A stretch of DNA of 64,000 nt, taken from assembly GCF_036971445.1 (NCBI RefSeq), contig NC_091478.1, forward strand, positions 76,260,001 through 76,324,000. The letters are read 5' to 3'. A model generated the notes under the pieces. It was not told where the DNA came from. It did no database searches and worked only from the letters and a program-made list of their open reading frames with translations. A program made the position numbers and the translations under genes. Positions 17,271 through 50,183 of this stretch are shown piece after piece. The DNA is from Narcine bancroftii. Taxonomy: Eukaryota. How positions within the stretch are numbered: position 1 is the first letter of the stretch; each line of letters opens with the position of its first letter.

Positions 17271-17637
17271 GCCTCGAAGTGGGGAACTATTGTTCACATG
17301 CCAATAGATTAATGATGCAAAATTTCCTCAGCACTGGAGATACAAAACGTCTCTGTATCTTCCCACTTGTCACAAGATAATGCAGTAGTAATGCTACTGC
17401 CTCACAACTGTAAGGACCTAGGTTCAATCCTGATCCAAGGTACTGACTGTGCAGTCTCACACTCTCTCCATTTGGGTTCTCCCCATTGTTCTCACTTCTC
17501 AAAGATGTGTTGTTATGTTAATTGACTACTATACTTATGTCATTCGTGTAAAGAGTCATAGAGTCATACAGCGTGGAAATAGACCCTTCGGCCTGACTTG
17601 TCCACATCCATTAAATTGTGCAATCCACCTTACACCT

Positions 17638-20600
17638 TGTGGTAAACCACTTTTGTATATTTAATTGCCTGGACATGCCCAATGGTTGACTATACCTGTG
17701 GCTCCTCCCACAGACTCCTGAATAAAGGCGACTATTCCCAGTTCAGGACAGTGAACCAGCATGGATGTGCCTCCATTTTTTTTTGTGAATAAAAGCCTAT
17801 CAATTTTACATAACTTCCAGTCTTTTGGAGTTATTGATGGTGCATACATTTTATTCACAATAGATTTGTGAAGTTGAAAATCGACCCTCAATCACCTGAA
17901 GCCTCCACCAACTTCAAACTTTGGCTGCGTTGCTGCGAAGCATTCCTGCAGGCATCATCTGCCATTGTTTGATCAGAGAACGTCAAGCTGCAGGTACTAC
18001 ACTCCCAGGTCAGGCCCTTGGTATAATCAATGATCAGGGTCATACCCGGAGGCAATAGACATTCTGAAAGACCTGTACCTGAGGAAGGTAAACGAGTCTA
18101 GGCGAGACACCTCCTGGCTACCCAAAAAAGGTGACCCAGGGAAATCAAGCGCTGAGTACCTCCGGGCCCTGCGAACTCTCGGACTGGCCTGCAACTGCAA
18201 GGCCATGATGGGCGTGGAGAACAGGAGGATCTGATTAGAGATATGCATGTTGCAGACATCAGCTCCAACTACATCTGTCAGAGACTGCTGGAACAAAATG
18301 AGCTCAATTTGCAGAGGGCGGTCAGACTAGGTGAGCTCAATTTGCAGAGGTGGCTCTCCAGAATATGGAAGCCTACTTGGCCAACAATGCAGCTGCCTAG
18401 TGGTTGCCCTGAGCGCCACCATCTTGGGACACTCTGCTACCATCCGACCACGGCTGCTGAATTCCACGAGCACCTAAAACCACTATTGCTGTGTCCTACC
18501 AGTGACCCGACCACAACCACTGTACTCCATGAGTACCCAAAGTGCTACTTCTGCGGCCTGAGCAAGCACCCGAAGAAAGGCTGCCCAGCGAAAAACACGG
18601 TTTGCTCTGTGGAAAAAAAGGGCATTACTCAAAGGTGTGAAACTCCAAGTCACCCTAATCCAGCAGTGATGCATCCGGGCCGTCATCTTCGAGACCCAGC
18701 AGTACTGCATGCAAGCCGTGGGCGCCACCATCTTGGGTGCCGCCATCATGTGACCGAACACGCAAACTCTCCACCGCAGCCTTCAGACAGCGACCTGACA
18801 CAGGCCTCCATCATGCTGGATCAAGGTCGTCCTCACCAATTTGCCAGATCGATGATAGACATCCAGGTAATGAATGGCCATGTGACAAGCTGTCTGTTCG
18901 ATAGGAGGAGCATGGAGAGCTTAATCCACCCTGTCATTGTACAGTGCTGCTCCCTCGTGGTTAGGCCAGTGAGTCACAAAGTCTCCTTGGCCTCGAAGAA
19001 CCATACGGCTGATGTGTGTGGCTATTACATAGTGGCCCTGACTGTGCGGGGCACAGGCTACAAAGATTTTAAACTCCTGGTGATGTCATAACTATGCACT
19101 GCCGTGCTACTGGGCCTGGACTTTCACACCTTAAAAGTGTGACGATGGACTATGATGGGCCCCAACCATTGACTTAATCAGCATATCACCAGCTCCCCAT
19201 CCACCTGGAGGACTGCCAATATACCAGTTTTGAGGCAGATGACTGCCTCTACTATTTCCTGAGGGTTCCCTTCAGCATTAACAATGGGATCTCAGTCTTC
19301 CAGTGGGAGATGGACCGAATGATAGACCAGTATGAGCTGCAAGACGCATTCTCATATCTTGTCAACGCCACCATTTGTGGCCATGACTTGCAGGATTATG
19401 ACCCCAACCTCAAAAAATTCCTCCAGACCGTCAAACTTCTTAACATGACATACAATAAGGCTAAATGAGTATTTCACACAACCTGCCTTGACATCCTTGG
19501 CTGCATCATGGAGAACGGAGTAATTGACCCCGACCCCAATCGCATGCACCTGCTTTTGGAACACGCCCTTCCCCACAGCCTCAAAGACCTGAAAAGGTGC
19601 CTGGAGTTCTTTTCCTACTCTGCCGAGTGGGTCCCCAATTATGAGGATAAGGCTTGCCCACTGGTTAAATCTATCTCCTTTCCCCTGACATCAGAGGCCC
19701 ATGCAGCTTTCAGCCGCATCAAGATGGACATTGCCAAGACTACAATGCACATCACTGATGAATCCATCCCATTCCAGGTGGAGAGCGATGCATCCAACTT
19801 TGCTCTCTGACTGCCACATTTAACTAGGCACCGTTACCTTCTTTCCACCACCTTCCAGGGCCCCGAAATTTGACACTTCTCTGTCAGGAAGGAGGCCCGA
19901 GCCATTGTTGAGGCGGTATGGCACTGAAAACACTATCTAGCTGGCAAACAATTTACCTTACTGGCTTTCATGTTCAACAACCGGCAGTGAGGTAAAATCA
20001 AAAAACTATAATATTGAGGTGGAGAATTGAACTTTCCACCTACAATTATGATATCCTGGGAAACTCAATCAGCCCCCTGATGCTCTATCCCATAGAACGT
20101 GTGTCAGTGCTCAAACAGACCAATTGTAAACCCTCCACAGTGATCTGTGCCAACCTGGAGTCACCAGGTTCTTCCACTTTATCATTGAGAATACGACTAT
20201 GACCAGAAACTGCCAGGTCTGTGCAGAGTACAAACCACACTTCCATTGACCAGAGAGAACACAGCTGAAAAAGGCCAACCGCCCCTTTGAATACCTGAGC
20301 ATCAATTTCAAAGGACCCCTCCCCTCATTTGACCACAAGGTGTACTTCCTCAACATCATTGATAGGTACTCGTTTTCTGTTTGCCATCCCCTGCCTGGAC
20401 AAGACAGTTGCACAGTCATCAAGGCCCTATGCAGTCTCTTCACCCTGTTTGTGTTCCCTGCTATATCCATAATGACCGGGGACCCTCCTTTATGAGTGCT
20501 GAGCTGCTCCAGGACCTGCTGGTCAGAGGCATCGCCACGAGCAGAACCATTAGCTACAACCTCCAAGGGAACAGGCAGGTGGAAAGGGAGAGTGCCACAG

Positions 20601-21406
20601 ACTGGAAGGCCATCCTCCTAGCTTTGAGGACTAGAGTCCTTCCAGAGTCCTGCTGGCAAGATGTTCTCTATGAGGCACTCCACTCAATCAGATTATTCCT
20701 ATGTACCCCCATTATGTTGTCCTTCCCCAGGACCCAGCCTGGTTGACGTTCCCAGGGCCAGTCCTACTCTGGAAGCATGTAAGGAGCCATAAGTCCAACC
20801 CACTGGTTGAAAGGGTCCACCTCCTCCATGCCAAACCACATTATGCCTATGTGGCATACTCTGATGGGCACAAGGACACAGTCTTTGTTAGCGACCTGAC
20901 ACCCTCAGGGGTTCTGGAGACTATTACCGATCACCCCGCATCCCCCTCACCTATCGTTACCCATGATGCATCAGGGCCATGGAATGTTACCCCAGCCCCA
21001 ACGGATGGCATGCCAGACTCGTCGCCACGCATCCACCAAACAAACGCCTGCATACAGCCGCCCCAGACTGTCCAGGACCCCATCGCTGTGATGCAGCCGG
21101 GACTGCGACAGTTGTAGCAGCAGATCAGACCACCCGAAAGACTTAATTTATGTTAACATTTAATGCACTTCACGCTTTCAAACTATTTTTAAAAGTAAGA
21201 GGTGAATGTGATAAACCACTGTTTGTATATTTAACTGTCTGGGCATGCCATTGGCTGACTGTACCCGTGGCTCCTCCCACAGACTCTTGAATAAAAGTGA
21301 CTGTTCCAAAGCCCCCTCTCCAGTTCAGTGCTTCCATTCTATTGTGAATAAAAGCCTATCAGTATTACATAATTTCCAGTCTTTTTGAGTTATTGATGAT
21401 GCATCA
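17638..21406 (+). mobile_element. Ty3/Gypsy LTR retrotransposon 1, degraded (LTRs about 17638-17848 and 21207-21406)
   Basis: Paired LTRs beginning TGTG(G/A)TAAACCAC; gag knuckle CYFCGLSKHPKKGC, RT remnants, RNase H VESDASNFAL, integrase; purine tract 21191-21206. Confidence 0.9.
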
Positions 21407-21479
21407 TGCCTATCTACCTGTGTATACCTATCCTATCCATTTATTAGTCCAAATTTTTCCTTAAACATTGCAATATGCA

Positions 21480-30715: not shown

Positions 30716-33700
30716 TGTTACTGTGTAGTGAGCTGAGTGGGCACACAGCGTAGTATTGCGAACCATCAGGATTCTTCATTGGGCACGCGGAGCCATAGGA
30801 CAGACAGCTGGGTACTCACCCATTTAATGGACCACACGCGCTGCATGCAGAGTAAAAGCACGTCAGTTTGCCGAGTCTCCTGCCGGAAGGCGTGGGACTC
30901 TCACTGTGCTTAATTTAAACCTGCCAGTCCCGTGGATCGGCAGCAAACTCATAATGATGTCCCACCCTGTCCCGTGGAGCCCGAGACGTGAGATATATAA
31001 AAGAAGCCTGTAAAGTCTAAATAAAACAGATTTGTGTTGACTAATCTGGTGTATGTGTATTGCTTTAGTAGCTCTACCAAAGTAGCTGCTACAATTGGTG
31101 ACCCCGACTACAAGATTCAGCCGAAGCATGAATCTAGTTATCAAGGACACAACTACAGCCACAATGGCAGTTAATGCGGCAGGACTTCTCTTGCCTCCTT
31201 TCTGGACCCATCAACCTCAGGTATGGCTTAATCAGGCTGAAACCCAATTTCATATTTGTGGCATAATGGCAGAGGACACGAAATTGTGGCATGTTGTAGG
31301 TGCGTTGGACGCTGCTACGGCAGCTAAAGTGAATTTATTTCCAATCCCCCGGCGGACAACCAGTACACCAGGTTCCGCCAATTTCTCCTGGACACACTGG
31401 AATTGACTAGCATGAGCGCGGCATGCAGCTTTTAAATATGGAGGAACTGGGTGACAGGAATCCATTAGAATGAGATGTTCGCATTGGCGGATGGTCATTC
31501 TCATTGCTTAATTTTTGAGACTCTATTCCTATCCAAATGCCCAGGTTGTGTCACAATGCCAATAGCTGACATGGATTTCCGCCATCCCCATGATGTGGCC
31601 CGTGGGCTGACAGACTCTACCGTACTCCAATGCAACAGTCTGCTCACATACAGCCTGTTTTCACAGCAGATACATCTCCCATGTCAGACGAACCTCCTGT
31701 GTCCGCGGTTCAGACAAAGAAGGAAGAACGTGCTGACGGGCGGCGAGAATGGTGATTTTACCATCGTCGGTGGGGGACAAAAAACCTATAGATGTGTCCC
31801 CGCCATGTAGCTATTACAGAAAAAAGTCGGGAAATGGAAAAGCTGGCTGCAAGTAGTGACCTAGGCAGCTGGCACAAGTACTGGCCTACTGTATCTTCAA
31901 GATGGTGCTGGTAAGCGCAGGTTTCTCGTAGATACGGGTGCTGAGGTCAGTTTGCTCCTGCCAACCTATTTTGAAAAGACACAAAAGCCACAACACCTGG
32001 CTCTTCAAGCAGCAAATGGGACTATCATTCCCAACTTTGGCACACAAAGGATCACGATTGGGAAAGGAGGGGCGATATTCCATTGGAATTGCATCTTGGC
32101 TTCCGTTGCATAGCTCATTTTGGGTGCAGATTTTTGAAGATCCCATGACTTGCTAGTAGACGTGAAGCAGAGGAAATTAGTTCATGCCACCACTTTTCAA
32201 ACATACCCGTTGGTAATGCAGCAAAGGGAGAATTTCCCAACTCAGGGTACATACCCTGCACAAAGACACCTATGCTGCCCTACTCGTCAAATTTCCCGAT
32301 ATTCCCTCTCTTAATTCCAATACCTCCAAACGTCCCATTACATAGACACTTCAGGCCCGTCGATTTACACCAGGGCTCGTCGTCTTCTGCCTGATAAGCT
32401 GCAGCAGGCAAGGGCAGAATTTACTACAATGGAGGAATTAGTCCTTAGGCATCGCCATTACATATGGTACCTAAGAAAACAGGTGGATGGAGACCCTGTG
32501 GCGATTATTGTAGGCTCAATAATATAACTACCCCTTGAAGATACCTCATCCCTCATTTACAAGATTTTGCTGCCCATCTGCACAATTGCTATGTTTTCTC
32601 CAATGTTGATCTTGTCAAGGGATACCATCAGATCCCAGTCCATAATGATGACATTCCTAAAACGGCAATTATTACCCCTTTCGGGTTTTTTGAATTTCTT
32701 AGGATGTCATTTGGGTTGAAAAACGCCGCTCAAACATTCCAGTGTCTTATGGAGGCTTTGGGCAGGGATTTAGAGTTCGCTTACATCACCTTAGATGACG
32801 TCCTCATAGCGAGTCAGACTGAGTAGGATCACCACCTGCATTTATGCCGCCTATTCCAATGGCTGGAGGAATTCGGTCTTACCATCAGCCCTAGCAAATG
32901 TCAATTTGGCAAGTCCACCATTGACTTCCTGGGACACAGGATCACAGCCAACGGTGGCTTTCCCTTATCCAGCAAAGTAGACGCAGTCTGTGCTTTTCCA
33001 AAACCTACCACAGTTAAGAGACTGCAGAAATTCTTGGGCCTGATAAACTTCTATCACCGGTTCATTCCAGCAGCTGCTGACATTCTTTGACCACTGTTTC
33101 AGATTCTCACCACAAAGCACAGGCAGGTTACCTGGACAACAGAGGCAGAGGTTGTGTTTACAACTGCCAAAGACGCTTTGGCCAATGCAACAATGCTCGC
33201 CCATCCTAATCCTGACACTTCCCTGACACTTAACACTGATGCCTCAGATACGGCCGTGGGTGCAATTCTTGAGCAGTCCATCGATGGCCATTGCCAATCC
33301 CTCGCTTTCTTTCACCGACATCTATGGAGATGAAATATAGTGCATTTGATCAGGAACTGTTGGCACTGTACCTAGCCACACAACACTTCCAATGTTTTGG
33401 AGGGTCGGCATTTCACTGTGTTTACAGACCGCTCGTTTTTGCCTTTAGCAAAATAACGGATCTATGGTCGCCCAGGCAGCAGTGTCACTTGTCATACATT
33501 TCCAAATTCATGACAGATGTGTCCCATGTCTCGGGTAAAAACAATCTTGTGGCTGATATGCTGTCCAGACAGACTAAATCATATGCAGGGTGGCAATGAT
33601 ATTCCTGAATTAGCCAGTGCACAGGCTATGGACCCCGATGTTCAGGCATTCGGTAAGGCCATTACTAACCTGGACATACAACAGGTGGCACCACAACTGG

Positions 33701-35217
33701 GCGCTCCAACCCTACTTTGTGACTACCTTAGACTGGTGATTCCGGCATCTTGGAGGTGACGCCTTTTTGACCAGGTACACAGTTTGTCTCATCCATCCAT
33801 CAGAACATCCGTCAAGCTCATGTTGAATAAATATATATGGCATGGACTGAAAAAAGATGTCATACAATGGGCTCGCACATATACCTCCTGCCAAACTTCC
33901 AAATTCAGCGGCACACCAAGGCCCCTCTTCAACAATTCCTGGTGGTACACCAGCAGTTTGAACATGTGAATGTAGACCTGGTCAGACTATTGCCAGTATC
34001 TCAACACATGAGATACATCTTAACAGTCATAAACGTTTCATGTGCTGGCCAGAGGCCATCCTGTTGCCATTCAGTGGCACTGACACATGTGCCAGAGCAT
34101 TCATTGTCAATTGGATCTCTAGATTTGGTGTCACGACACACATAACTTCAGATCACGGAGCACAATTCATCTCTACGTTATGGACTGCCTTTGCATGCTT
34201 TTGTGGCACACAACTGCACCACACCACAGTATATCAACCAAAGTCCAACGTCCTTGTTGAACATTTCCACCAACAACTCAAGTCCATACTTAAGGTCCGA
34301 CTCACTGGTCCCAATTGATTTGATGAGTTACCATGGGTTCTACTGGGTGTGCACATGGCTCCCAAGGAAGATTTGCCTGCATCATCCGCAGAGATGGTTT
34401 ATGGTACAGTTCTTTCAGTTCCAGGGGACATTCACTTCGCATCTAACTCTGACCTGGACTTCCTTCAGCAGCTTTGACGTGGTGTCACAGTCAGTAAACC
34501 TGTTCCAACCATGTGGCATGGAACTCCTAAACAACACGTGCCCCTAATGCTCCTTGACGCTTTGTTTTTGTAAGCAGTTCCCAGGAGCACTGTTACAACG
34601 ACCATATGAGGGCCCTTTCCGCATGATTAAGAAGGTCAAGGTTGTATATACTTTGGACAATGGGGGGCATTCACAAATGTTCAATGTGGACAGACTCAAG
34701 CCTGCCCTTGTGGATCCCACTTCACCCATTTTTGCCCCCAGCCCAGGCGGCGAGGATGTCCACCTAGGTGCTTGCAGCCAATGTATTGGTTTCTGGCGAC
34801 GGTTCGGGGAAGGGGGGGGGGGGGTGGTGTAGCAGCCGTGTAGCAGGCCGAGTGGGCGCAGAGTGTGGTATTGCAAACCATCACTGGAGTGGTTCTTCGG
34901 TGGGCACATGGAGCCATAGGACAGACAGCCAAGTACTCGCCCATTTAATAGACCCCACGCGCGCAATGCTGCATGCCAAGTTACGGAACATTGTTTGCTG
35001 AGTCTCCTGCCAGAAGGTGCGGAACTCTAACCATGCTTAATTTAAACTTGCCGGTCCCATGCGGTGGCAAACTCATAATGATGTTCCACCCTGTCCCATG
35101 AAGCCTGGGATGTGAGATATATAAAAGAAGCCTGTAAAATCTAAATAAAACAGTCTTGTGTTGACTAACCTGGTGTATGTGTATTGCATTAGTAGCTCTA
35201 CCGAAGTAGTCGCTACA
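30716..35217 (+). mobile_element. Ty3/Gypsy LTR retrotransposon 2, near full length, frameshifted (LTRs about 30716-31093 and 34828-35217)
   Basis: Paired LTRs ending gctaca; PBS TGGTGACCCCGAC (31096-31108, complementary to the tRNA-Trp 3' end); gag LPPFW, protease FLVDTGAEVS, RT LDDVLIAS, RNase H TDASDTAVGA, integrase, G-rich PPT. Confidence 0.92.
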
Positions 35218-35839
35218 ACTGATTATTTTTAAAACTCCTAAAATATTTGAAGTATTATTTAAAAGCAACCAAGTTTAAAAGACAGTTTGAGCACTCCAAA
35301 CACCTGGCTGAAATACTTATATTTTTTATATTCAACAAGGGATGATTTTATCACTCGGTGGTAATTAATAGCAATCTCTTTGAGATGATGTCTTGCTATT
35401 GGCATCAACATCATCCAATATTGAAATGTTTTCAAACAACAAACAAAATCACGTTTCCCACTGATTGAGCTGCTCTCTGTTTTGGGGTTAGTTATTTGGT
35501 TTTCATTGTGACTCATTTTTCTCCTTTTTGACTTTTTTTAAAATTGTGTCATTTTAATGATTAACTCATGATTTTGGTGTAGTTTCTGATTTGAAGATGC
35601 CCTTCCCTGATCTGAAATGCATCGTCATAGTTTTCTTGGAAGGAATACGGTTGATTTTGTTGTGTGAACTTTTTCTGTGGATTGTTTCTTGATAAATTAT
35701 CGTCAGTTATGTTCATACATTGTACATTATGTACTCCAAGCAGAGACAATTGAAAACTTAAATTACATTTTTGTGTTTCAGTATTTATTTCATTTATGGT
35801 AGGATTAGTGCAGCCTGCTGTTCTACCACTGACATGGTA

Positions 35840-39699: not shown

Positions 39700-39900
39700 A
39701 ACGTCACTGACAGAATGGGATGCATTACACCTCAAGTCATTTTATATATTTTACATAATCCTTTGAGCACACTCCCGTTGAGCATTCAAGCTGGTTGCAT
39801 CACTGTCTGGTACATTCAAGACAAGAAAAAACTCGAGTTAACTCAGCCTGCGACATCACAGGCACCAGATTTCAATCCATCAAGGGGACAGCTACAAGAG
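39700..39900 (+). mobile_element. Rex1/L2-like LINE remnant abutting the tandem array
   Basis: SIQAGCITVWY; similar to 4380-4500. Confidence 0.5.
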
Positions 39901-42389
39901 GCCATTGACTTTGTTGACCACACTCTTGTTGCCAGCTCTAGATAATGTGTGCCTTACCCGGGTCCAGGTCATTGACCATGTTGACCACACTCTTGTTGCC
40001 AGTCTAGATAATATGTGCCTTACCCGGGTTCAGATCATTGACCATGTTGACCACAGTCTTGTTGCCAGTCTAGATATGTGCCTTACCCAGGTTCAGATCA
40101 TTGACCATGTTGACCACAGTCTTGTTGCCAGTCTAGATAATATGTGCCTTACCCGGATTCAGATCATTGACCATGTTGACCACAGTCTTGTTGCCAGTCT
40201 AGATATGTGCCTTACCCGGGTCCAGGTCATTGACCATGTTGACCACAGTCTTGTTGCCAGTCTAGATAATGTGTGCCTTACCCGGGTCCAGGTCATTGAC
40301 CATGTTGACCACACTCTTGTTGCCAGTCTAGATATGTGCCTTACCCGAGTCCAGGTCATTGACCATGTTGACCACACTCTTGTTGCCAGTCTAGATAATA
40401 TGTGCCTTACCAGGGTTCAGATCATTGACCATGTTGACCACACTCTTGTTGCCAGTCTAGATAATATGTGCCTTACCAGGGTTCAGATCATTGACCATGT
40501 TGACCACACTCTTGTTGCCAGTCTAGATATGTGCCTTACCCGGGTCCAGGTCATTGACCATGTTGACCACACTCTTGTTGCCAGTCTAGATAATATGTGC
40601 CTTACCCGGGTCCAGGTCATTGACCATGTTGACCACACTCTTGTTGCCAGTCTAGATAATATGTGCCTTACCAGGGTTCAGATCATTGACCATGTTGACC
40701 ACACTCTTGTTGCCAGTCTAGATATGTGCCTTACCCGGGTCCAGGTCATTGACCATGTTGACCACACTCTTGTTGCCAGTCTAGATAATATGTGCCTTAC
40801 CCGGGTCCAGGTCATTGACCATGTTGACCACACTCTTGTTGCCAGTCTAGATAATATGTGCCTTACCAGGGTTCAGATCATTGACCATGTTGACCACACT
40901 CTTGTTGCCAGTCTAGATATGTGCCTTACCCGGGTCCAGGTCATTGACCATGTTGACCACACTCTTGTTGCCAGTCTAGATAATATGTGCCTTACCCGGG
41001 TCCAGGTCATTGACCATGTTGACCACACTCTTGTTGCCAGTCTAGATAATATGTGCCTTACCAGGGTTCAGATCATTGACCATGTTGACCACACTCTTGT
41101 TGCCAGTCTAGATATGTGCCTTACCCGGGTCCAGGTCATTGACCATGTTGACCACACTCTTCTTGCCAGTCTAGATAATATGTGCCTTACCCGGGTCCAG
41201 GTCATTGACCATGTTGACCACACTCTTGTTGCCAGTCTAGATATGTGCCTTACCCGGGTCCAGGTCATTGACCATGTTGACCACACTCTTGTTGCCAGTC
41301 TAGATAATATGTGCCTTACCCGGGTCCAGGTCATTGACCATGTTGACCACACTCTTGTTGCCAGTCTAGATAATATGTGCCTTACCAGGGTTCAGATCAT
41401 TGACCATGTTGACCACACTCTTGTTGCCAGTCTAGATATGTGCCTTACCCGGGTCCAGGTCATTGACCATGTTGACCACACTCTTCTTGCCAGTCTAGAT
41501 AATATGTGCCTTACCCGGGTCCAGGTCATTGACCATGTTGACCACACTCTTGTTGCCAATCTAGATATGTGCCTTACCCGGGTCCAGGTCATTGACCATG
41601 TTGACCACACTCTTGTTGCCAGTCTAGATAATATGTGCCTTACCCGGGTCCAGGTCATTGACCATGTTGACCACACTCTTGTTGCCAGTCTAGATAATAT
41701 GTGCCTTACCAGGGTTCAGATCATTGACCATGTTGACCACACTCTTGTTGCCAGTCTAGATATGTGCCTTACCCGGGTCCAGGTCATTGACCATGTTGAC
41801 CACACTCTTCTTGCCAGTCTAGATAATATGTGCCTTACCCGGGTCCAGGTCATTGACCATGTTGACCACACTCTTGTTGCCAGTCTAGATATGTGCCTTA
41901 CCCGGGTCCAGGTCATTGACCATGTTGACCACACTCTTGTTGCCAGTCTAGATAATATGTGCCTTACCCGGGTCCAGGTCATTGACCATGTTGACCACAC
42001 TCTTGTTGCCAGTCTAGATAATATGTGCCTTACCAGGGTTCAGATCATTGACCATGTTGACCACACTCTTGTTGCCAGTCTAGATATGTGCCTTACCCGG
42101 GTCCAGGTCATTGACCATGTTGACCACACTCTTGTTGCCAGTCTAGATAATATGTGCCTTACCCGGGTCCAGGTCATTGACCATGTTGACCACACTCTTG
42201 TTGCCAATCTAGATATGTGCCTTACCCGGGTCCAGGTCATTGACCATGTTGACCACACTCTTGTTGCCAGTCTAGATAATATGTGCCTTACCCGGGTCCA
42301 GGTCATTGACCATGTTGACCACACTCTTGTTGCCAGTCTAGATAATATGTGCCTTACCAGGGTTCAGATCATTGACCATGTTGACCACC
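39901..42389. repeat. Tandem array of 38 units of 63 or 66 bp, each a copy of the TMPPE exon-1 3' end plus 5' splice site plus start of intron 1
   Basis: Minus-strand unit: GTGGTCAACATGGTCAATGA(T/C)CTG(A/G)ACCC(T/G)G/GTAAGGCACAT(ATT)ATCTAGACTGGCAACAAGAGT. The terminal unit is the real exon end. Higher-order periods of 195 and 324 bp. Confidence 0.97.
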
Positions 42390-43036
42390 ATTTGAAGTTT
42401 GCTCCTTCCCACTGTGGGCCCCAGGTGGATATCGGACAGCAACACCATCTTCAGCTGATGGAATGACTGAGGCAGCTTGTGGAGAGGAAGCTCCACCCGT
42501 TTGACGACGGGGGGCAGGCGGCCGTTGAGGAGCCCCAGTACGGTGCAGACCAGGGTGAAGGAGAGGGCGACGGCGAGGGCCAGGCCTGGACGGGCCGAGG
42601 GCGTCCGGCTGACGCAGCCGCGGGCCCGGTCCAGCGCCCCGCACGCCAGCAGGCTGAAGAGGAGGAAGACGTAGGCCCCGAGGCAGGAGTAGCAGAGCAG
42701 GGAGAGGGGGTGCGGCTCCTCGGACACCAGCGTGAGGAGGCAGGCGGAGCTGGAGTGGGCCAGGAGGAGGAAGGCCGCCAAGGTGGCTCTCCAGGCCCGC
42801 AGGCCCCGGCTGGGAGGTCCGGGCCGGGGGCCGTGCAGGCCAGCCGCGGCCTTGCTCCAGATGTAGTGCGTCGCGGCGGCCATGAGGGTGTTGAGGAGCA
42901 GCAGGGCCTGCACCCGGAGCACCCTCAACAGCGTGAGCTGCTCGATGCGCCCGCGGACGCTCCAGGCGGCCGCCATGGACACAAGCACGGCGGCGGCGGC
43001 CAGCGACACGCCGGCCTGCCACGGCAGCCTGCCCAT
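42358..43036 (-). CDS. TMPPE: TMPPE coding exon 1 (transmembrane segments plus LLSDIHLGP motif I); full CDS 1287 nt, 428 aa
   Basis: Hydrophobic N-terminus followed by LSDIHLGPTVGRSKL; CTG/GTAAGG donor at 42357; all five exons join in frame with all calcineurin-like phosphoesterase motifs. Confidence 0.93.
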
Positions 43037-43794: not shown

Positions 43795-43877
43795 GTCAGG
43801 ATGGCCGAGCGGTCTAAGGCGCTGCGTTCAGGTCGCAGTCTCCTCTGGAGGCGTGGGTTCGAATCCCACTCCTGACA
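43795..43877 (+). tRNA. tRNA-Leu (CAG)
   Basis: GTCAGGATGGCCGAGCGGTCTAAGGCGCTGCGTTCAGGTCGCAG...GGTTCGAATCCCACTCCTGACA; 83 nt, intact A and B boxes, long variable arm, TTTT at 43885-43888. Confidence 0.97.
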
Positions 43878-44369
43878 CAGCTCGTTTTGAATCTTTTTAA
43901 ATGTGAGTCCTTGACATGTTGATTAGCATTCAAAAATTGGGATGCAGGTTGTCATGAAAACATTATTATTTTGCGGCAGCATCACAGTGCAAACATTCAT
44001 TTTAGCTACCTTACAAAAAAAAAATTAGTGAACGAAAAGTCAAATTAAGTCATTGATCCTTTGGAATCTGATGGCAGCCCTGAAGAAGCTGACCTTGTGC
44101 TGCTTAGTAAGCTCGACTATTGATGTAAGCTGTATTTAGATCATGTAAAACGTTGTTTATTATTTTATTGCTAATTTGCAGTCACATCCTTGTTTTTAAC
44201 TCCTCACAGTTTGTTTGTTAAAACAAAAAAAGTCTACTCTTGTCAACAGTCTTTTTGAACAGTGTGCCATTTGTGCAGACCCAAAGTGTGGACACAAAAT
44301 TCTCAACAATATACCGGATGCCTCTTCACTCCTGTCACAGTTCATACAAATTCCCAGGAGTTACATTCA

Positions 44370-47527: not shown

Positions 47528-47610
47528 TGTCAGGAGTGGGATTCGAACCCACGCCTCCAGGGGAGACTGCGACCTGAACGCAGCGCCTTAGACCGCTCGG
47601 CCATCCTGAC
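47528..47610 (-). tRNA. tRNA-Leu (CAG)
   Basis: Reverse-complement copy, one difference from the first in the variable arm; TTTT terminator at 47522-47519. Confidence 0.97.
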
Positions 47611-48586: not shown

Positions 48587-50183
48587 TGCTGGCCCATCAA
48601 CAATCCACAGAAGGCCGAGTAGGGAATCAGGCTTTTAATAGCTAAAGACTGGGACACTATCAAACAATCATCCGCCTGATCAAAGTAAAAGGGTGGCAAT
48701 GCAAGGGGCTGTGGTTAGGATCGGTTTCAGGAGGCCAATCACAGTGTAACAGGGGTTTACCACATTCACCCCCTCCTCTTTACAAAGAATCCTGCAGGGT
48801 GAGAAAAAGAGAGTGAAACAACTGGACACACAAACACATTTACAGGTAAGTCTATCCGGGGTGGTGGGGGGGGGGGGGGTCTCCTCTGTGCCAGTGAGCT
48901 GCGTGGCAAAGGTTGGGATGGGCTGCCGTAACATCGTGATCAAGTTGAGGCCTGTTAACTGGTGGTGGAAGGGAGTGTGGTGCACGAGTAGCCTGAGGTA
49001 AGGGGCGGTCAGCTGCACGTTCGGGGACCCCCTAAGGTTGGAGTGGGGGGGAGAGTGTGGAAAGTCGGTGGTGGTCGAGGGGGATCCTGAATCAAGAACC
49101 ATATCTTCTTGCCCATCGGGAAACGTAGGCATACTGGGGGTTGGTGTGGAGGATGCAGACCCTCTTTACCATTGGGTCAGTCTTAGATTGCCTGACGCGC
49201 TTACGGGGCAGGATGGGTCCCGGTGAGGTTAGCCAGGTGGGTGGCGTAGTCCATTCATGAGGCATGCTGTTGGTGGCCTTACGTAAAAGTGACCGAACGG
49301 AGTGAAGTGCACTTGAGAGGACTTCCTGCCAATGGAGATGTGGAGACCCCATTACCTCAGTGCCAGGAGGATAGTCTTTCAGACTGTGGCATTTTCCCTT
49401 TCCACTTGCCCATTACCCCAGGGATTGTAGCTGGTGGTCCTGCTCGTGGCAATGCCTCTGGCCAACAGATACTGCAGCAGCTCATTGCTCAAGAATGATG
49501 TACCCTGGTGACTATGGATGAAGTCAGGGTACCCAAACAGCATGAAGATGCTATAGAGAGCCTTGATAACAGTGGCAGTGGTAATGTCAGGCCAAGGGAT
49601 GACGAAGGGGAAATGGGAATATTAATTAATAACAGTAAGGAAATAGATATTCTGGTTAGAGGAGGGGAGGGGACCCTTGAAGTCGATGCTGAGATGCTCG
49701 AAGGGGCACGTTGCCTTGATAAGATGCACCTTGTCTAGTTGGTAGAACTATAGTTTGTATTCAGTACAGACCTGACAGTTTCTAGTCATTGTCTGAATCT
49801 CCTCGACAGAGTAAGGTAGATTCAGAGATTTAACAAAATGGAAAATTGGTAACTCCAGAATGACAGAGGTTATTGTGAAGAATCTGTCTTTTGTCCATTT
49901 GAAGACTAACACAGGTTCCATGGGATAAGGCATCTGAGGACTCATTAAGTTTCTCTGGTTTTAGATACTGCTCCATAATCATTTGAAAATTTTAGCTATT
50001 AAAATGGATGTACCATCAATAATTCACAAAAACCTGTGTGGTGAAATAAACAAGCTTTTAAAAGCTAACTATCAAACAATCATCCACCTCCTTCAGAGCA
50101 AAGGTAAAAGGGTGGCAATGCAAGGGGTTATGGGTAGGATTGGTCTCTAGCAGCAAATCATGGTATAACAATGGTTTACCACA
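48587..50183 (-). mobile_element. Internally deleted Gypsy element 3 (related to element 1); only the integrase region remains between LTRs
   Basis: LTRs about 50006-50183 and 48587-48764, both starting TGTGGTAAACC on the minus strand; PPT at 48765-48781; integrase peptides similar to 20200-20900. Confidence 0.8.

What the first reader, a model, noticed from the sequence alone, without database searches (positions are those of the whole stretch)
17783..17864. Gypsy element 1 has no tRNA PBS; the post-LTR sequence is complementary to its own LTR poly(A)-signal region
Seen in the sequence: directly after the 5' LTR there is no TGG-type PBS. Instead TTTTATTCACAATAGA (17849-17864) is the exact reverse complement of TCTATTGTGAATAAAA in the 3' LTR (21338-21353, 16/16) and matches 12 nt in the 5' LTR (17783-17794). 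The paired segment contains AATAAA. Established knowledge: Tf1-type elements self-prime by pairing the PBS with LTR-derived RNA, and retroviruses must silence the 5'-LTR poly(A) site. Inference: tRNA-independent priming and/or occlusion of the 5' poly(A) signal by a fold-back that can form only at the 5' LTR.
Basis: partly seen in the sequence, partly recalled or inferred. Interest (0 to 1): 0.7.

Follow-up and report, generated by a model that had tools for sequence, protein, structure and literature searches.

The report
Self-priming Gypsy retrotransposon, no tRNA site
This decayed jumping gene and its distant relatives in other animals carry, where a host tRNA normally docks to start DNA copying, a short sequence that pairs with the element's own end repeat, so the group probably starts copying with a piece of its own RNA.

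Summary
17849-17864 is the reverse complement of 21338-21353 (16/16) and of 17783-17794 (12/12); no shuffle of 20,000 exceeded 12. It is a clade trait: a second family in the window and 15 metagenome families keep the pairing with different letters (17 of 18 families with a visible site; 205 of 208 pairs over the first 13 positions). The pairing starts at the LTR end, where a primer must sit, ends before a conserved RCC that opens a second helix, and one young copy shows a matched change in both LTRs and the site. Three families pair perfectly without a poly(A) hexamer, so priming explains more than poly(A) masking. The element lies in a chromodomain-less animal Gypsy clade, apart from the one chromovirus in the tree. 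It works like Tf1 but is not a Tf1/sushi member. RNA start, cleavage and priming are inferred, not shown. The scan noted the same signature before on other genomes; nine paper searches did not show it in print for this clade.

The parts
17638..17848 (+). 5' LTR of element 1 (TG...CA; the last base may be the one-base spacer)
17779..17794 (+). LTR arm (candidate self-primer) in the 5' LTR; 17783-17794 pairs perfectly, 17788-17793 is AATAAA; two positions decayed into a T run
17795..17843 (+). U5 hairpin; its base (GCC at 17795 with GGT at 17839-17841) is the second helix that starts right after the inferred cut
17849..17864 (+). primer binding site complementary to the element's own LTR arm, no TGG
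17865..21190 (+). decayed gag-pol (Gag with zinc knuckles, protease, C-terminal part of RT, RNase H, integrase); many stops and frameshifts, start of gag and first half of RT missing
21191..21206 (+). polypurine tract, ending GGTGAA as in most full-length relatives
21207..21406 (+). 3' LTR
21338..21353 (+). LTR arm in the 3' LTR, 16/16 complementary to the primer binding site
17633..17637 (+). left flank CACCT; with right flank TGCCT (21407-21411) a likely 5-bp target duplication decayed at one CpG (inference; relatives make 5-bp duplications)
48587..50183 (-). second, internally deleted element of another family of the same clade: 5' LTR 50183-50005, site 50004-49991, 3' LTR 48764-48587 with arm 48646-48633 (14/14, ATTAAA hexamer)
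31096..31098 (+). control: ordinary TGG-type site of the unrelated Gypsy element at 30723-35221; no self-complementarity

Best explanation
The post-LTR sequence is the primer binding site of a self-primed Gypsy clade. In the element RNA a 13-18 nt arm in R, whose 3' end is usually the poly(A) hexamer, folds back on the site (helix 1). The RCC that follows the arm pairs with a GGY in U5 (helix 2), so that the arm/RCC bond lies at a helix junction. A cut there, most likely by the element's RNase H as in Tf1, frees a 3' OH on the arm, which primes minus-strand DNA through U5; the short DNA then jumps to the 3' R using the bases between the hexamer and the poly(A) site. Plus-strand synthesis copies the primer into the next site, which keeps site and arm matched. 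Shown: the pairing, its register, its covariation, the second helix in aggregate, the clade. Inferred: RNA start at or near the arm's 5' edge, the cut, the enzyme, the priming, the copying. Masking of the 5' poly(A) signal is a plausible side effect. This copy itself is dead.
For: Pairing in 17 of 18 families with a visible site; own-family match 12 or more of 14 in 16 of 17, cross-family 7 of 272 (mean 9.1). 205 of 208 Watson-Crick pairs at positions -1 to -13 in 16 families, with 3-4 pair types at seven of these positions; fall to 2 of 16 at -19. Sharp edge at the LTR end plus one base, the place of a primer's 3' end; RCC follows in 15 of 16. Second helix: summed stem 57 against 35.4 +/- 3.5, maximum 48 in 2000 shuffles. 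Copy L011 differs from its near-identical sisters by G>T in the arm of both LTRs and the matching C>A in the site. No TGG in any family. Tf1 precedent: first 11 bases pair with the site and RNase H cuts at 11/12 (PMC7175516, passage). Ty3 and CaMV RTs cut 11-13 nt from the polymerase site (PMC11363490, passages), close to the 13-pair core.
Against: No RNA start, cut site or strong-stop DNA was observed; only contigs were available. Only 5 of 14 families reach p < 0.05 for the second helix on their own, and the window copy does not (p 0.52); the 3' LTR's U5 has no unusual fold (z 0.07). The third duplex of the Tf1 structure is absent. Uncompensated changes in the site occur in L005, L014 and L010, and L025 has a site without a visible arm. 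The matched change rests on one copy. In the window family a TATA-like and initiator-like pair lies 35-60 nt upstream of the arm, so the arm need not be the 5' end of the RNA.
Confidence: 0.8

Rival explanations
1. The fold-back exists to hide the 5' LTR poly(A) signal from the cleavage machinery, and priming uses something else.
For: AATAAA or ATTAAA ends the arm in 11 of 16 families and AGTAAA in one. The last six arm bases are predicted paired with the site present (unpaired probability 0.01-0.06 in 13 of 14) and more open without it (0.88 for the window copy). The helix can form only at the 5' LTR. Hairpin masking of AAUAAA in HIV-1 is recalled, not looked up.
Against: L019, L023 and L050 keep 17, 15 and 14 perfect pairs with no recognised hexamer, with changes inside the hexamer matched in the site. 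Masking needs neither the fixed register at the LTR end nor RCC, and leaves the element with no other primer site: the start codon follows 16-47 nt after the LTR.
Confidence: 0.08
2. Self-priming, but the primer is the arm of the 3' R copy (genome ends joined, or a second RNA in the particle), so the 5' R stays whole and the RNA may start well upstream.
For: Both LTRs carry the arm. In the window elements and in L033 the 3' arm matches better than the 5' arm. Upstream promoter-like motifs in the window family.
Against: The better 3' match is explained by decay after insertion. The local fold-back is strongly favoured. The second helix is local to one LTR and fits either way. The Tf1 precedent is the 5' copy.
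Confidence: 0.08
3. The site binds an internal tRNA fragment or another host small RNA, and the LTR match is a by-product.
For: Half-tRNA priming is known for Copia lineages (PMC6317226, PMC10886601, passages). The site has some fixed letters (T at 1-3, C at 10 in 16 of 17). The host tRNA set could not be searched.
Against: Letters at most positions differ among families and follow each family's own LTR, which one host RNA cannot explain. No Rfam match in 17600-17950. The only tRNA genes in the window do not match.
Confidence: 0.03
4. Chance or a one-off inverted duplication in this decayed copy.
For: The segment is AT-rich.
Against: (chance excluded); the same layout with other letters in 16 further families.
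Confidence: 0.01

Closest known systems
Tf1/Tf2 of Schizosaccharomyces pombe, Tj1, and the Tf1/sushi group (self-primed chromoviruses)
   Same: No tRNA site; site next to the 5' LTR pairs with a segment of the element's own LTR; a further helix next to the inferred cut (PMC7175516, PMC10085805, PMC4600332, passages).
   Different: No chromodomain, SH3_Tf2-1 or Ty3-capsid domain; RT outside the chromovirus stand-in's group; duplex of 13-18 pairs against 11; two helices, not the three-duplex pretzel; the arm usually ends in the poly(A) hexamer; leader of only 16-47 nt; hosts are arthropods, a tunicate and cartilaginous fish.
Plant Tcn1 (Gypsy) and TAR (Copia) lineages, predicted self-priming
   Same: Defined by the same sequence test, a 10-nt or longer LTR complement starting 0-5 nt after the 5' LTR (PMC6317226, passages); this element meets it.
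   Different: Tcn1 is a chromovirus and TAR a Copia; that survey covers plants.
Cigr-1 clade or one of the MolGy clades of animal Gypsy elements
   Same: A Ciona protein is in the clade; element of about 4.0-4.2 kb with one ORF of about 1,200 aa and short LTRs fits my recollection of Cigr-1.
   Different: No named reference sequence could be compared; the one paper that lists these clades does not mention primer sites (PMC6238403, 0 hits for PBS). The name is a lead only.
Retroviral poly(A) hairpin (HIV-1) and U5-IR stem
   Same: AAUAAA placed in a stem at the 5' LTR; a U5 helix beside the primer site (recalled; U5-IR likeness of Tf1 seen only as a cited title).
   Different: Retroviruses prime with tRNA; here the masking strand is the primer site itself.

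Membership tests
Ty3/Gypsy LTR retrotransposon | LTRs TG...CA, polypurine tract, target duplication | tested here: met
   5-bp duplications in 8 distinct insertions of relatives; in the window a decayed 5-bp pair
Ty3/Gypsy LTR retrotransposon | order protease-RT-RNase H-integrase | tested here: met
Tf1/sushi group | no tRNA site; site complementary to own LTR | tested here: met
Tf1/sushi group | chromodomain at the integrase C-terminus | tested here: not met
   none in 16 clade proteins scanned (10, 6); positive control P0145 scores Chromo 3.5e-24
Tf1/sushi group | RT/RNase H groups with chromoviruses | tested here: not met
   25-row clade at 100/99 excludes P0145; joining them is rejected, p-AU 2e-5. 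One stand-in only; Tf1 and sushi themselves were not in the tree
Tf1/sushi group | three-duplex pretzel structure | tested here: not met
   helix 1 and a helix after the arm are present; pairing of the sequence downstream of the site with U5 is at chance, -150 against -148 +/- 10 kcal/mol over 14 families
Tf1/sushi group | primer is the 5' end of the RNA | not testable with these tools
   only contigs were available; initiator-like Y-R-T-T often lies at -18 to -15, untested
Tf1/sushi group | RNase H cut releases the primer | not testable with these tools
   needs biochemistry
tRNA-primed Gypsy elements | TGG within a few bases of the 5' LTR, complementary to a tRNA 3' end | tested here: not met
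   0 of 17 families; present in control element 2
Cigr-1 clade | RT groups with Cigr-1 | not testable with these tools
   no reference sequence held; only size and a Ciona member fit

The most novel reading that the evidence does not exclude
A widespread, chromodomain-less animal Gypsy clade evolved tRNA-free priming independently of Tf1/sushi, with its own two-helix junction, and uses the poly(A) signal itself as the 3' end of the primer: one 13-18 nt segment marks the RNA start, hides the 5' AAUAAA while the RNA is made, is cut off right after the hexamer to prime reverse transcription, and serves as the poly(A) signal at the 3' LTR.
Probability: 0.4. Interest if true: 0.75.

Novelty: new variant of a known kind. 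Interest (0 to 1): 0.55.

Why it matters
Self-priming has been shown by experiment for Tf1 and is treated as a mark of the Tf1/sushi chromoviruses. A second, large animal Gypsy clade with its own geometry would mean that escape from host tRNA arose again, would remove these elements from control by tRNA fragments that target primer sites, and would explain why primer-site searches leave them blank. The conserved junction (13-pair core, cut before RCC) gives an exact, testable prediction for how an RT cuts double-stranded RNA to make its own primer.

Tried and rejected
No genome is held for the window, so no genome-wide copy set and no host tRNA set. Viral contigs gave no relatives in three scans. 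The prokaryote genome collection was not scanned. Public runs: no RNA holder listed; four runs laid as contigs give no RNA start, end or level, and no variant row for 17849-17864 is among the 40 shown (120 not shown), so conservation of the site among copies of the window's own family is not established. Third duplex: at chance. Rfam: nothing. tRNA-Leu genes in the window: no match to the site. Saci2/lennie was considered as the clade name; its sites are described as tRNA-type (PMC12471100, passages) and no sequence comparison was possible. Helenus/Ajax use tRNA primers (PMC10886601). A look-up of earlier scan notes by sequence found nothing. Primary papers on Tf1 structure and on vertebrate sushi were not held. 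No supplements were read; those of PMC6238403 could name the clade.

Full report
Observation. The 5' LTR runs 17638-17848 and the 3' LTR 21207-21406; they match at 170 columns with 29 mismatches and 13 gap columns. The 16 bases after the 5' LTR are the exact reverse complement of 21338-21353 and pair 12/12 with 17783-17794. In 20,000 shuffles of the 3' LTR the longest such complement reached 12 once and never more; the word has three matches in the window, all in this element, against 0.09 expected. The region folds as one hairpin, z = -5.07. Other copies in public runs read C at 17780 and A at 17782 (29 and 39 contigs in run X1; also in X5, X7, X8), so the shorter 5' match is decay of this copy. 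The element is dead: many stops and frameshifts, with the start of gag and the first half of RT missing. Its nearest named proteins come from Mobula and Scyliorhinus, so the host is probably a cartilaginous fish (inference).

A second family in the window. An internally deleted element on the minus strand (50183-48587; integrase 71% identical in DNA) has a different site, TTTTAATAGCTAAA, that pairs 14/14 with its own 3' LTR arm, where the hexamer is ATTAAA; its 5' arm is decayed. The unrelated Gypsy element at 30723-35221 has an ordinary TGG site and no self-complementarity.

Relatives. No genome is held. A Gag alignment of five stored proteins found 288 candidate stretches in metagenome contigs, 65 confirmed. 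Loci were thus chosen by protein, not by the motif. I scored the 44 loci whose match began at the Gag start with at least 75 nt upstream and dropped 21; two of the dropped, L016 and L026, were read by hand. Of 37 distinct junctions, 25 pair at 12 or more of 13 positions and 33 at 11 or more; the misses are L010 (deletion in the site), L017 (arm lies at the other end of the contig), L022 (contig starts inside the arm) and L025 (no arm). Grouped into families by junction and gag identity (at most 71% DNA identity between representatives where they align), 15 metagenome families and the two window families pair with their own LTR; one family (L025/L026) shows a site without an arm. Own-family matches reach 12 of 14 in 16 of 17 cases (L017 is cut by the contig end), cross-family matches in 7 of 272. 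In 16 families put in register by me at the LTR end, positions -1 to -13 form 205 of 208 Watson-Crick pairs, with three or four pair types at seven positions; pairing falls to 14, 9, 8, 6, 6 and 2 of 16 at -14 to -19. Families are related by descent, so these are not independent draws, but the letters change in step.

Geometry. The site begins one base after the LTR's CA in the 13 metagenome families listed. In both window elements it begins directly after a CA, but three bases after CAT, and loose ends of other copies begin CAATT (low agreement), so a one-base spacer is likely here too. The arm is followed by RCC in 15 of 16 families. That RCC can pair with a GGY in U5: the summed stem starting at the first base after the arm is 57 over 14 families against 35.4 +/- 3.5, maximum 48, in 2000 shuffles; only 5 of 14 are significant alone and the window copy is not, because of a bulge. 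A third duplex with sequence downstream of the site is at chance. G at -10 is kept in 14 of 16 families including both window families, whose hexamer is shifted by one base, so the register follows the junction and not the hexamer.

Priming or masking. AATAAA or ATTAAA ends the arm in 11 of 16 families, AGTAAA in one, and none in four; three of these four (L019, L023, L050) keep 14-17 perfect pairs, the fourth is a decayed copy. Predicted folds bury the last six arm bases when the site is present, so masking is possible, but it does not need the fixed register and leaves no other place for a primer, since the start codon follows the LTR by 16-47 nt. Among seven aligned copies of one young family, which differ by 3-57 substitutions in 4.2 kb, L011 alone has G>T in the arm of both LTRs and the matching C>A in the site. 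My rough chance figure for the partner change is 0.002; one-step copying of the primer into the site explains it (inference). Against this, L005, L014 and L010 have unmatched changes in the site.

Placement. In a 59-row RT-RNase H tree the window element sits with the Mobula and Scyliorhinus proteins inside a 25-row clade (100/99) that holds all seven self-pairing loci in the tree; the chromodomain-bearing P0145 and the TGG element fall outside, and joining P0145 to the clade is rejected (p-AU 2e-5). P0145 is a single stand-in; Tf1 and sushi were not available. None of 16 clade proteins scanned has Chromo, SH3_Tf2-1 or Ty3_capsid domains. Named members come from insects, a spider, an isopod, a tunicate and cartilaginous fish; their junctions were not seen. 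Full-length relatives are 4.0-4.2 kb with 150-230 nt LTRs and 5-bp target duplications. The clade may be Cigr-1 or a MolGy clade; this is recalled and untested.

Mechanism. Most likely the arm folds back on the site, the RCC helix stacks on it, RNase H cuts at the junction, and the freed arm primes minus-strand DNA; the short DNA transfers to the 3' R through the bases between hexamer and poly(A) site. For Tf1 the first 11 bases pair with the site and RNase H cuts at 11/12 (PMC7175516, passage), within a three-duplex structure (PMC10085805, passage). Ty3 and CaMV RTs cut 11-13 nt from the polymerase site (PMC11363490, passages), near the 13-pair core; the link is my inference. The RNA start is unmapped: an initiator-like Y-R-T-T often lies at the arm's 5' edge, while the window family also has TATA-like and initiator-like words 35-60 nt further up. 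Priming by the 3' copy of the arm is not excluded.

What is known. Nine searches of the held library returned self-priming for Tf1/sushi, Tcn1 and TAR, and no account of it in a non-chromovirus animal Gypsy clade. I read passages only, of PMC6317226, PMC3601003, PMC6934838, PMC12471100, PMC6238403, PMC4600332, PMC7175516, PMC3670739, PMC10886601, PMC5341516, PMC11363490, PMC10085805, PMC5006619 and PMC5443660; no supplements. Subscription papers, including Butler 2001 and Lin and Levin 1998, were not held and could contain a prior note. The scan itself recorded the same signature in Gypsy elements of other animal genomes; those are unchecked notes and not independent support.

Verdict. Real, conserved and covarying; works like Tf1 self-priming, is not a Tf1/sushi member; new variant of a known kind. 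Interest 0.55.

Noticed in passing
window 39879-42466: Tandem array of 63/66-nt units (37 copies of a 300-nt reference) overlapping an 874-codon open frame.
   Followed up: no
window 43795-43878 (+) and 47528-47610 (-): Two tRNA-Leu(CAG) genes, 98.8% identical, in opposite orientation, in a GC-rich region.
   Followed up: partly
window 48587-50183 (-): The second element's LTRs are only about 72% alike and its flanks show no target duplication; it may be a recombinant of two insertions.
   Followed up: partly
L016 3700-3885 and L017 3900-4046 (contig ends): A pyrimidine run ending in CAG, like a splice acceptor, lies 15-25 nt upstream of the arm in these two related families; weaker look-alikes in L015 and L020.
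   Followed up: no
L001, L002, L004, L038 (LTR end to gag start): The gag start codon follows the LTR by only 16-19 nt and abuts the duplex, so the fold-back could also switch the RNA between translation and packaging.
   Followed up: no
window 17638-17848: Contig depth over the LTR is in the thousands against about 7 in the flank and higher than over gag, so the family is abundant with many solo LTRs (a rough measure).
   Followed up: no
window 17720-17727 and 21288-21296: A second AATAAA-containing word about 50-60 nt upstream of the arm, 33 nt before an initiator-like CCAGTT in the 3' LTR; may be a TATA-like promoter element.
   Followed up: no
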